Shown here piece by piece: positions 6,023-9,000 of a stretch of 64,000 bases of DNA. This stretch comes from Escherichia coli (lineage in GTDB: Bacteria > Pseudomonadota > Gammaproteobacteria > Enterobacterales > Enterobacteriaceae). Positions within the stretch are counted from its first letter, which is position 1, and each line of letters begins with the position of its first letter. Where the stretch lies: NCBI RefSeq assembly GCF_009931435.1, contig NZ_CP043414.1; one strand, written 5' to 3'. The position numbers are program-made.

Positions 6023-9000
6023 TAATGGCGTTAACAATGCGAGCGTGCCTGATGCGCTACGCTTATCAGGCCTACGAGACTCCTGCAATATTTTGAATTT
6101 GCATGATTTTGTAGGTCGGATCAGACGTTAACGCCGCATTCGGCAAGAAGCTATAAGAAAAGGGCGGAGATCATCTCCGCCCTTTTTATTTCTGCAATCC
6201 GCGATTATCATCCCGCAGATCTATACTTTTTGAGTCAACACGTAACGCTTTACAGGTGATTATCATGGGGCTTTTTGATGAAGTTGTCGGCGCCTTTCTG
6301 AAAGGCGATGCGGGGAAATATCAGGCTATTTTGAGCTGGGTTGAGGAGCAGGGCGGTATTCAGGTGCTGCTGGAAAAACTGCAAAGTGGCGGCTTAGGTG
6401 CCATTCTCTCAACCTGGTTGAGTAATCAACAGGGCAATCAGCCAGTGAGTGGCGAGCAACTGGAGTCGGCGCTCGGCACAAATGCGGTGTCCGATCTCGG
6501 GCAAAAACTGGGTGTAGATACCAGTACGGCTTCCAGCTTGCTGGCAGAGCAACTGCCAAAGATTATTGATGCTCTCTCACCGCAGGGTGAAGTGTCTTCG
6601 CAAGCCAATAACGATCTGCTTTCCGCAGGCATGGAACTGCTGAAAGGGAAACTCTTCCGCTAAGCAAAAGGGGAGCATGCAACGCGCGTTGCATCCCCCT
6701 TTTCCCTCAGGTGTTGTACTGATTTTTGAGCGGAATCGCGTTAGCATGGGTCAGGAACCAATCTACCTGGGGAACTCATGGCTATCAAACTCATTGCTAT
6801 CGATATGGATGGCACCCTTCTGCTGCCCGATCACACCATTTCACCCGCTGTTAAAAACGCGATTGCCGCAGCTCGCGCCCGTGGCGTGAATGTCGTGCTA
6901 ACGACGGGTCGCCCTTATGCAGGTGTTCACAACTACCTAAAAGAGCTGCATATGGAACAGCCGGGCGATTACTGCATTACTTATAACGGCGCGCTGGTAC
7001 AGAAGGCCGCCGATGGTAGCACCGTGGCGCAAACCGCTCTGAGCTATGAAGACTACCGTTTCCTGGAAAAACTCTCTCGCGAAGTCGGTTCTCATTTCCA
7101 CGCCCTGGACCGCACCACGCTGTACACCGCCAACCGTGATATCAGCTACTACACGGTGCATGAATCTTTCGTTGCCACTATTCCGCTGGTGTTCTGCGAA
7201 GCGGAGAAAATGGACCCCAATACTCAGTTCCTGAAAGTGATGATGATTGATGAACCCGCCATCCTCGACCAGGCCATTGCGCGTATTCCGCAGGAAGTGA
7301 AAGAAAAATACACTGTGCTGAAAAGTGCGCCGTACTTCCTCGAAATCCTCGATAAACGCGTTAACAAAGGTACGGGTGTGAAATCACTGGCCGACGTGTT
7401 AGGCATTAAGCCGGAAGAAGTCATGGCGATTGGCGATCAGGAAAACGACATCGCAATGATTGAGTATGCAGGTGTTGGTGTGGCAATGGATAACGCTATT
7501 CCTTCGGTGAAAGAAGTGGCGAACTTTGTCACCAAATCCAACCTGGAAGATGGCGTGGCGTTTGCTATTGAGAAGTATGTGCTGAATTAATCAGTGGGCG
7601 GGCAAACTACATAAATGCGTTTGCCCGCAGCGATTAACAATTTCTGGTCGTGCATAAAATCAGGAACTGGAGTGGTGACGTTACTATATCCAGCGTAAGA
7701 GTGACTGGTAGCAGCGCATTAGCGAGGCCGCGCGGAACGCCATCAGTTGCTTTGTACTTATAAAATCCCACCGTAAAGGGTTGATGGAAAACCATCACGT
7801 TTGAGTAATCCGCTTTTTTATTTTTCTGGTGGATAGAGCCTTTCAGGCCGTCAAGTGCCCAGGTACAACGCTGGGTATTACAAATAAAACCATATTGTGT
7901 CGCCAGTGCTTTATCTTCCTCATTATCCCAGTCGTAATAGAGCGTTATTGAACCAGAAAAATTAGTATCACTGCTGCTTAAAATAAATTTCGCGTTATCG
8001 GAAACGGTGATTCTTTCGCCATGAATTGCCGGATCGTTCAGCATTTTAACCACCTCGCCGCCGCCCGTGGTCAACAGATAGTCCAACGATTCACCAACAA
8101 AAACATAGCCTTTCGTACCGTTACTATCCTCTGCCAGCGATAACCCCTTAATCGAGTCTGACCGCCATTGCTCGGCATGTGGAGGACTTGCGGTATTGAA
8201 AAGCAGTCCTGCGGTTAGACAACCGGTCAACGCAAATGCCAAAGAACACAAACCGGCAGCCTTAAAAAATCCCTTAAAATTCAACTTCATGACTAATCCT
8301 TTAAACGAGTAGCTAAGCCGTTGAAAGCATACTCTTCTTTCCCTCCTGTTTAGCGCCTGATATCCCTTTTCAGATTTCTGCCCGACGCATGTCATTTTTT
8401 TATGCATTGTTCTTTTTGTGATCTAAATTGTAGTACAACAATATAACTTTGTACTACATTACGCATACAGCAAACGCGAACGTCATCACGCTGGTACTAC
8501 AAAATTGCCGCGTTATGCATCGATCGGGGTAAAGTAGAGAAGTACATACAGAGCACAAGGACTCTCCATGACTCTCAATAAAACCGATCGCATAGTCATT
8601 ACGCTGGGTAAACAGATCGTTCACGGCAAATACGTGCCAGGCTCGCCGCTTCCGGCCGAAGCGGAACTTTGTGAGGAGTTTGCAACCTCGCGCAACATCA
8701 TCCGTGAGGTGTTTCGTTCGCTGATGGCGAAGCGGCTGATTGAAATGAAACGTTATCGCGGGGCGTTTGTGGCACCGCGTAATCAGTGGAATTACCTCGA
8801 TACTGACGTGCTGCAATGGGTGCTGGAAAACGACTACGACCCACGGCTTATCAGTGCAATGAGCGAAGTGCGAAATCTGGTGGAACCGGCGATTGCCCGT
8901 TGGGCGGCAGAGCGCGCGACTTCCAGCGATCTGGCGCAGATTGAATCAGCGCTGAACGAGATGATCGCCAACAATCAGGACCGCGAAGCGTTTAACGAAG

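What the first reader, a model, noticed from the sequence alone, without database searches (positions are those of the whole stretch)
8428..8459. Paired palindromic DgoR operators upstream of the dgo operon
Two inverted repeats, TTGTAGTACAA and TTGTACTACA, are spaced about 10 bp apart and lie about 110 bp upstream of dgoR, consistent with autoregulated D-galactonate-responsive repression.
Basis: partly seen in the sequence, partly recalled or inferred. Interest (0 to 1): 0.25.

Follow-up and report, generated by a model that had tools for sequence, protein, structure and literature searches.

The report
Known DgoR operators of dgo operon

Summary
TTGTAGTACAA (8428-8438, perfect palindrome) and TTGTACTACAT (8449-8459, one arm mismatch) lie 10 bp apart, 21 bp centre to centre. 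They sit at -140 to -110 from the dgoR start codon (8568) in the yidX-dgoRKADT intergenic region of an E. coli chromosome. The published IR1 oligonucleotide matches 8423-8444 exactly. The first 45 nt of the published EMSA probe match 8418-8462 with one spacer mismatch. Sort-Seq work placed a DgoR-dependent repressor site at -140 to -110 and purified DgoR on that DNA. In 78 Enterobacterales species both boxes are nearly invariant. The spacer is always exactly 10 bp, yet 74 different spacer sequences occur. Mechanism, from the literature: two DgoR dimers (GntR/FadR family) occupy boxes that overlap the CRP class II site and -35 region (IR1) and the -10 TACATT (IR2). D-galactonate releases them. 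Because dgoR is the first gene of the operon, it is autoregulated. A third conserved box (TGGTACTACAA, 8492-8502) lies 43 bp downstream of IR2. It was predicted computationally in 2015, and no experimental test of it turned up in the papers I could read.

The parts
8417..8432 (+). CRP class II site. The left half TGTGA is at 8417-8421. The weak right half, TTGTA at 8428-8432, overlaps IR1 and the -35 region.
   Evidence: The sequence is. TGTGA as the left CRP half-site, and class II activation between -160 and -140, are from PMC6003448. The block 8408-8423 is 0.89 conserved over 79 sequences.
8420..8423 (.). Dam GATC site inside the CRP half-site, 5 bp upstream of IR1. Its adenine is at -147 from the ATG.
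   Evidence: The sequence is and the site is invariant in the alignment. Salmonella dgoR has one hemimethylated GATC at -147 and shows Dam-dependent ON/OFF expression (PMC7708049).
8428..8438 (.). DgoR operator IR1, TTGTAGTACAA, a perfect palindrome of the FadR-subfamily type (T.GT-N3-AC.A).
   Evidence: Exact match to the published IR1 oligonucleotide. Conservation 0.99 across species. All 11 positions are kept in at least 74 of 78 species.
8439..8448 (+). 10-bp A+T-rich spacer (CAATATAACT). It holds a -10-like TATAAC, which is TATAAG in K-12.
   Evidence: The length is 10 bp in 78 of 78 species, yet 74 distinct sequences occur; conservation is 0.39 and A+T is 0.73. Position 8447 varies among E. 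coli strains as C, G or A.
8449..8459 (.). DgoR operator IR2, TTGTACTACAT, with one arm mismatch.
   Evidence: Published as IR2 'with one mismatch'. Lies inside the EMSA probe. Conservation 0.95.
8455..8460 (+). -10 hexamer TACATT of the CRP-activated, D-galactonate-inducible dgo promoter. It overlaps IR2. The inferred transcription start is near 8466-8467.
   Evidence: The sequence is. The wild-type -10 'TACATT' between -120 and -100 is from PMC6003448. The start-site position is my inference from the class II geometry; it has not been mapped here.
8492..8502 (.). Third DgoR-like box, TGGTACTACAA, with one mismatch. Its centre is 43 bp from IR2 and 64 bp from IR1.
   Evidence: Present in 76 of 78 species, at 43 bp from IR2 in 68 of them. 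Conservation 0.82 against 0.43 and 0.56 in the flanks. Listed as a predicted E. coli DgoR site (CACGCTGGTACTACAAAGTTG) in the supplement of PMC4494728. It lies outside the 52-nt EMSA probe listed (described as 55 nt).
8528..8537 (+). Conserved block GGTAAAGTAG, a probable -10 region (TAAAGT at 8530-8535) of the downstream RNA polymerase site.
   Evidence: Conservation 0.93. An RNA polymerase site between -70 and -30 from the ATG, which is 8498-8538, is reported in PMC6003448. Assigning this hexamer as the -10 is my inference.
8568..9257 (+). dgoR, a GntR/FadR-family repressor and the first gene of the operon.
   Evidence: Pfam GntR (2.9e-14) and FCD (2.1e-27). PDB 7C7E at 3.7e-149. RefSeq annotates it as DgoR.
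9254..13290 (+). dgoK, dgoA, dgoD and dgoT, the structural genes under the operators' control.
   Evidence: ORFs. Pfam families DGOK, KDPG aldolase, MR_MLE and MFS_1. RefSeq annotation.

Best explanation
The two boxes are IR1 and IR2, the operators of the E. coli dgoRKADT operon. Each 11-bp palindrome of the form T-T-G-T-A-N-T-A-C-A-A/T is the binding site for one dimer of DgoR, a GntR/FadR-family repressor. The centres are 21 bp apart, two helical turns, so two dimers sit on the same face of the DNA. IR1 covers the right half of a class II CRP site and the -35 region. IR2 covers the -10 hexamer TACATT. Bound DgoR therefore excludes RNA polymerase, and probably CRP, from the promoter. D-galactonate binds the C-terminal FCD domain, changes the protein's conformation and releases the DNA; cAMP-CRP then activates transcription. 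Because dgoR is the first gene of the operon, the repressor limits its own synthesis. What was shown here: the sequence, its non-random occurrence, its identity to the published operator DNA, and its conservation with a fixed spacing in 78 species. What comes from published experiments: DgoR binding, the requirement for the repeats, release by D-galactonate, CRP activation and the -10 hexamer. What is inferred: same-face or cooperative binding of two dimers, the exact transcription start, and competition with CRP.
For: The boxes are at 8428-8438 and 8449-8459 and are far more clustered than chance allows. They match the published IR1 oligonucleotide exactly and the first 45 nt of the EMSA probe with 1 mismatch. 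The Sort-Seq repressor site at -140 to -110 equals 8428-8458; it disappears in a dgoR deletion strain and in D-galactonate, and DgoR was purified on that DNA. The downstream gene encodes a GntR plus FCD protein that matches PDB 7C7E, the DgoR structure entry, at E = 3.7e-149 over all 229 residues, followed by dgoKADT. The phylogenetic footprint gives IR1 0.99 and IR2 0.95 conservation, against 0.39 for the spacer and 0.43 for the downstream flank. The 21-bp centre-to-centre distance holds in 78 of 78 species with 74 different spacer sequences. The motif fits the FadR-subfamily consensus TKGT/ACMA with 3 nt between GT and AC, for which DgoR is named explicitly (PMC4494728).
Against: Nothing contradicts this reading. 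There are four caveats. The primary paper (Singh et al. 2019, J Bacteriol 201:e00281-18) is not in the held library, so the requirement for each repeat is cited only through later papers from the same laboratory. The generic sigma-70 scan found no promoter in 8250-8620, which is expected for a CRP-dependent promoter with a poor -35 but means the overlap rests on published Sort-Seq data. The fixed 10-bp spacer could reflect -35 to -10 promoter geometry as much as contact between dimers. The abstract of PMC7674646 says DgoR binds 'in the presence of' D-galactonate, which conflicts with the other papers and with that paper's own introduction, which names D-galactonate as the effector of the repressor.
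Confidence: 0.95

Rival explanations
1. The conserved palindromes are only promoter and activator elements (the CRP right half-site, -35 and -10). They are conserved for RNA polymerase and CRP recognition and are not repressor operators.
For: IR1 overlaps the CRP site and -35 region, and IR2 overlaps the -10 TACATT. A fixed 10-bp spacer would also follow from promoter spacing alone.
Against: Mutations in -140 to -110 raise expression in glucose. That effect vanishes in a dgoR deletion strain, and DgoR is the protein enriched on this DNA. Purified DgoR shifts a probe that spans the two boxes, and D-galactonate releases it. A third copy of the same palindrome at 8492-8502 lies outside this promoter. 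The palindromic symmetry and the invariant GT/AC cores are not what -35 or -10 hexamers require.
Confidence: 0.02
2. The two boxes act together as one 10-bp-stem hairpin or cruciform (8429-8438 pairing with 8449-8458). It would work as an RNA or DNA structure, for example a terminator or attenuator.
For: The arms are 100% complementary. As RNA, 8420-8470 folds to -10.4 kcal/mol with a z-score of -3.8.
Against: Two copies of one palindrome must be complementary to each other, so the fold needs no separate explanation. No T-run follows, and the terminator scan found nothing. There is no Rfam match; the only hit has E = 0.93. The stem lies upstream of the inferred transcription start, and yidX is transcribed away from it. 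Across 78 species, the two stem positions that vary lose pairing in 14 and 11 species, and no pair shows a compensatory double change.
Confidence: 0.01
3. The boxes are operators for a different FadR-subfamily GntR regulator of E. coli that shares the T.GT-N3-AC.A motif, such as PdhR, LldR or GlcC. DgoR would be only a bystander.
For: The GT-N3-AC core is shared across the FadR subfamily. PdhR and other GntR proteins are detectable sequence relatives of DgoR.
Against: Affinity purification on this DNA enriched DgoR most among the transcription factors plotted, and deleting dgoR abolishes the repression signature. The boxes co-occur with dgoR in all 78 orthologous loci examined.
Confidence: 0.02

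Closest known systems
E. coli K-12 dgo cis-acting element: DgoR operators IR1 and IR2 (Singh et al. 2019 J Bacteriol 201:e00281-18, as cited in PMC11705089 and PMC12288454; Belliveau et al. 2018, PMC6003448)
   Same: It is the same locus and the same element. IR1 with its flanks is identical over 22 nt. IR2 is identical. The spacing, the distance to dgoR, the CRP half-site TGTGA and the -10 TACATT are all the same.
   Different: There are only strain-level SNPs outside the boxes. The spacer base at 8447 is C here and G in K-12, giving TATAAC instead of TATAAG. A few further changes lie 3' of IR2, between 8463 and 8470.
FadR-subfamily GntR operators in general (FadR-fadB, PdhR, LldR, GlcC): palindromes with TKGT/ACMA boxes and 3 nt between GT and AC (PMC4494728)
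   Same: The palindromic T.GT-N3-AC.A architecture is shared. One dimer binds per palindrome, with each monomer reading a half-site.
   Different: Here there are two, possibly three, phased palindromes rather than one. The specific sequence is TTGTA-N-TACAA, and the effector is D-galactonate.
Computationally predicted DgoR regulon sites in Enterobacterales (supplement of Suvorova et al. 2015, PMC4494728)
   Same: That supplement lists the same three E. coli sites: CTAAATTGTAGTACAACAATA, TAAGTTTGTACTACATTACAC and CACGCTGGTACTACAAAGTTG. These correspond to 8428, 8449 and 8492 in the window.
   Different: That work was a prediction. The third site has no experimental test in the papers I could read.

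Membership tests
DgoR operator (GntR/FadR-subfamily operator) | An 11-bp palindrome with GT and AC cores separated by 3 nt (T.GT-N3-AC.A). | tested here: met
   TTGTAGTACAA is perfect and TTGTACTACAT has 1 outer mismatch. The consensus is described in PMC4494728.
DgoR operator (GntR/FadR-subfamily operator) | Sequence identity with DNA shown experimentally to bind DgoR. | tested here: met
   The published IR1 22-mer matches exactly at 8423-8444. The first 45 nt of the EMSA probe match 8418-8462 with 1 mismatch.
DgoR operator (GntR/FadR-subfamily operator) | Location upstream of a dgoR gene (GntR HTH plus FCD domain) that heads a dgoKAD(T) operon. | tested here: met
   Pfam GntR and FCD, then DGOK, KDPG aldolase, MR_MLE and MFS_1. 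PDB 7C7E at E = 3.7e-149. RefSeq annotation.
DgoR operator (GntR/FadR-subfamily operator) | Conservation of the boxes and their spacing in orthologous loci (phylogenetic footprint). | tested here: met
   In 78 species, IR1 is 0.99 and IR2 0.95 conserved against 0.39 for the spacer. The 21-bp centre distance holds in 78 of 78.
DgoR operator (GntR/FadR-subfamily operator) | [quoted passage not shown] | tested here: inconclusive
   The generic sigma-70 scan finds no promoter in 8250-8620. The published -10 TACATT is present at 8455-8460 and the CRP half-site TGTGA at 8417-8421. The overlap therefore rests on published Sort-Seq data, not on my scan.
DgoR operator (GntR/FadR-subfamily operator) | Binding by DgoR dimers and release by D-galactonate. 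| not testable with these tools
   Published EMSA gives an apparent KD of about 0.5 uM, with complete release at 1.6 mM D-galactonate (PMC12288454; PMC11705089). DNA affinity purification is reported in PMC6003448.

The most novel reading that the evidence does not exclude
The third conserved box (TGGTACTACAA, 8492-8502) may be a working auxiliary operator. It lies 43 bp from IR2 and 64 bp from IR1, about 4 and 6 helical turns. That puts it roughly 26-36 nt into the leader of the inducible promoter and right beside the downstream RNA polymerase site. DgoR bound there could act as a roadblock, could loop to IR1 and IR2, or could throttle the downstream promoter that supplies basal DgoR. The dgo control region would then be a three-operator system, whereas published experiments address only two. 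The invariant centre bases (G in IR1, C in IR2) would then reflect a defined orientation of the bound dimers.
Probability: 0.45. Interest if true: 0.25.

Novelty: already known. Interest (0 to 1): 0.07.

Why it matters
It matters little as a discovery. It shows that the first-stage reader can recognise a genuine, experimentally characterised operator pair from raw sequence, and it fixes the coordinates of the dgo control region in this window. The dgo operon has some biological interest, because the held literature studies dgoR variants in natural and gut-evolved E. coli. The operators themselves, their ligand and their mechanism are already published. The only open point is whether the conserved third box, predicted in 2015, has a function.

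Tried and rejected
1. A hairpin, cruciform or terminator reading of the IR1/IR2 complementarity. The fold is stable, but no T-run follows, the terminator scan is empty, there is no Rfam family, and no pair shows a compensatory double change in 78 species. Rejected.

2. Additional DgoR regulon members in the window. The four other 1-mismatch hits (28711, 35392, 43758, 59404) all lie inside long ORFs, and most of them break a GT or AC core. Judged to be chance.

3. A generic sigma-70 promoter scan of the intergenic region found nothing. This is uninformative for a class II CRP-dependent promoter.

4. I tried to read the primary paper (PMC6351737, Singh et al. 2019) for the mapped transcription start and the repeat mutagenesis. 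It is not held. A literature search for a preprint or an equivalent paper found none.

5. I considered whether the third box was a new observation. It is not, because it is listed among the predicted DgoR sites in the supplement of PMC4494728.

6. The two-copy direct repeat TTATGCAT.G.TC (8400-8412 and 8513-8525) is only weakly conserved across species. I treated it as probable chance.

Full report
**Where the window comes from.** The 371 bases around the finding match 5,424 of 5,426 complete E. coli genomes. One record is 100% identical and most are 93-98% identical. In the identical record the gene order is dnaN-recF-gyrB-yidB-yidA, then a hypothetical protein on the opposite strand (annotated yidX in other E. 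coli records), then dgoR-dgoK-dgoA-dgoD-dgoT, cbrA, yidR. In window coordinates, yidX is on the minus strand and ends its coding region at 8290. dgoR is at 8568-9257 on the plus strand, followed by dgoK (9254-10132), dgoA (10116-10733), dgoD (10730-11878) and dgoT (11953-13290). Pfam confirms the gene identities. dgoR carries GntR and FCD domains, and the others match DGOK, KDPG aldolase, MR_MLE and MFS_1. The DgoR protein matches PDB 7C7E at E = 3.7e-149.

**The observation.** The sequence reads gatctaaaTTGTAGTACAAcaatataactTTGTACTACATtacg.
- Box 1 (8428-8438) is a perfect palindrome with 5-bp arms.
- Box 2 (8449-8459) is the same palindrome with one mismatch in its outermost position.
- The gap between them is exactly 10 bp, so the centres are 21 bp apart.
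- The pair spans -140 to -110 from the dgoR ATG.

The pattern TTGTANTACAA with up to 1 mismatch occurs 7 times in the window against 1.55 expected, and no shuffle out of 100 reaches 7. Three of those hits lie within 75 bp of each other here. The other four are inside long ORFs. None of 200 shuffles produced two sites within 32 bp or three within 80 bp.

**What it is.** The Chaba laboratory gives the DgoR IR1 sequence as 5'-CTAAATTGTAGTACAACAATAT-3'. It describes IR1 as a perfect inverted repeat and IR2 as having one mismatch. Both overlap the dgo promoter and both are needed for DgoR binding (PMC11705089; PMC12288454).
- The 22-mer matches window 8423-8444 exactly.
- The first 45 nt of their Cy5 EMSA probe match 8418-8462 with a single mismatch at spacer position 8447.

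Independently, Belliveau et al. 2018 (PMC6003448) used Sort-Seq. They found a repressor signature between -140 and -110 from the dgoR start codon, which is window 8428-8458. DgoR was the most enriched transcription factor on the -145 to -110 DNA. The signature disappears in a dgoR deletion strain and in D-galactonate. They also identified a class II CRP site with left half TGTGA (window 8417-8421) and a non-optimal -10, TACATT (window 8455-8460). A second RNA polymerase site lies between -70 and -30 (window 8498-8538). So IR1 sits on the CRP right half and the -35 region, and IR2 sits on the -10.

**Comparative evidence generated here.** A scan of one genome per species recovered 80 dgoR loci from Enterobacterales, with DgoR 79-99% identical.
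- Upstream of dgoR, nearly every species has boxes near -140, -119 and -76.
- In an alignment of 79 distinct upstream regions, conservation relative to the window base is 0.99 for IR1 and 0.95 for IR2. It is 0.39 for the 10-bp spacer, 0.43 for 8461-8488 and 0.30 for the yidX-proximal part.
- The IR1-IR2 centre distance is 21 bp in 78 of 78 species, while 74 different spacer sequences occur, with A+T at 0.73.
- The centre base is G in IR1 in 78 of 78 species and C in IR2 in 77 of 78.
- Within E. coli, the boxes are invariant while neighbouring bases vary.

**Mechanism.** DgoR is a GntR/FadR-family dimer. Members of this family bind palindromes with one monomer per half-site, and the subfamily consensus TKGT/ACMA with 3 nt between GT and AC explicitly includes DgoR (PMC4494728). 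Two dimers on boxes 21 bp apart lie on the same face of the helix and cover the -35/CRP region and the -10, which blocks initiation. D-galactonate binding to the FCD domain releases the DNA, with an apparent KD near 0.5 uM and full release at 1.6 mM in EMSA. CRP then activates transcription. Because dgoR is the first cistron, the circuit is autoregulated. Same-face cooperativity, competition with CRP and a transcription start near 8466-8467 are my inferences. The fixed spacer length could equally be imposed by promoter geometry.

**Rivals.**
- The hairpin reading arises because the two boxes are perfect 10-nt complements and fold to -10.4 kcal/mol. It fails on several counts. No T-run or terminator follows and no Rfam family matches. 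The stem lies upstream of the inferred start. The two stem positions that vary lose pairing in 14 and 11 of 78 species, and no pair shows a compensatory double change.
- A promoter-only reading is contradicted by the published dgoR-deletion and EMSA data.
- Another FadR-type regulator is contradicted by the affinity purification and by the strict co-occurrence of the boxes with dgoR.

**The third box.** TGGTACTACAA at 8492-8502 has one mismatch. It is present in 76 of 78 species, at 43 bp from IR2 in 68 of them. It is better conserved (0.82) than its flanks. It lies outside the published 52-nt EMSA probe. It is not a new observation, because the supplement of Suvorova et al. 2015 lists it as a predicted E. 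coli DgoR site together with IR1 and IR2. The Reg-Seq paper mentions an 'upstream' and a 'right' DgoR site and says the right one was not recovered. I could not determine whether 'right' means IR2 or this box. Whether it functions as a roadblock, a looping partner or a control on the downstream promoter remains untested in the literature I could read.

**Verdict.** The feature is already known and experimentally characterised, so interest is low.

Noticed in passing
window 8492-8502: A third DgoR-like palindrome, TGGTACTACAA, lies 43 bp downstream of IR2. It is conserved in 76 of 78 Enterobacterales species, usually as TTGTACTGCAA or TAGTACTACAA. It was predicted as a DgoR site in 2015 (PMC4494728 supplement) but lies outside the published EMSA probe.
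   Followed up: partly
window 8420-8423: A GATC (Dam) site sits inside the CRP half-site TGTGATC, 5 bp upstream of IR1, and is invariant across species. Its adenine is at -147 from the ATG, the same position as the hemimethylated GATC reported for Salmonella dgoR, which shows Dam-dependent ON/OFF heterogeneity (PMC7708049). A second GATC at 8522-8525 is absent from the Salmonella diarizonae, Klebsiella oxytoca and Enterobacter cloacae sequences aligned.
   Followed up: partly
L082 (NZ_AP027877.1) 4001-5350; window 8250-8620 as query: Only 5,020 of 5,426 complete E. coli genomes carry at least 80% of the yidX-dgoR intergenic query. In the one partial-match genome inspected, the whole dgoRKADT operon is deleted, so yidX abuts a short, unnamed, N-terminally truncated pseudogene (114 bp) and then cbrA. 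About 7% of genomes lack the full-length region; only this one was inspected, so the cause in the others is unknown.
   Followed up: partly
window 8447: A SNP lies in the spacer between IR1 and IR2. It is C here (TATAAC), G in K-12 and HH45 (TATAAG), and A in strain AZ159. It falls in a -10-like hexamer that Sort-Seq work treated as one of several overlapping RNA polymerase sites. A possible effect on basal dgo expression was not tested.
   Followed up: no
window 8433 and 8454: The centre base of the palindrome is G in IR1 in 78 of 78 species and C in IR2 in 77 of 78. The two operators therefore keep an opposite orientation of an otherwise symmetric site. The reason is unknown; it could be promoter overlap or the geometry of the bound dimers.
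   Followed up: no
window 8528-8537 and 8408-8416: Two further strongly conserved blocks lie in the intergenic region. GGTAAAGTAG (0.93) is probably the -10 region of the downstream, DgoR-independent RNA polymerase site. A T-rich tract, TGTTCTTTT, lies just upstream of the CRP half-site.
   Followed up: no
window 8400-8412 and 8513-8525: A two-copy direct repeat, TTATGCATTGTTC and TTATGCATCGATC, is 113 bp apart. Each copy lies a few bases upstream of one of the two promoter regions. It is only weakly conserved across species and is probably chance.
   Followed up: no
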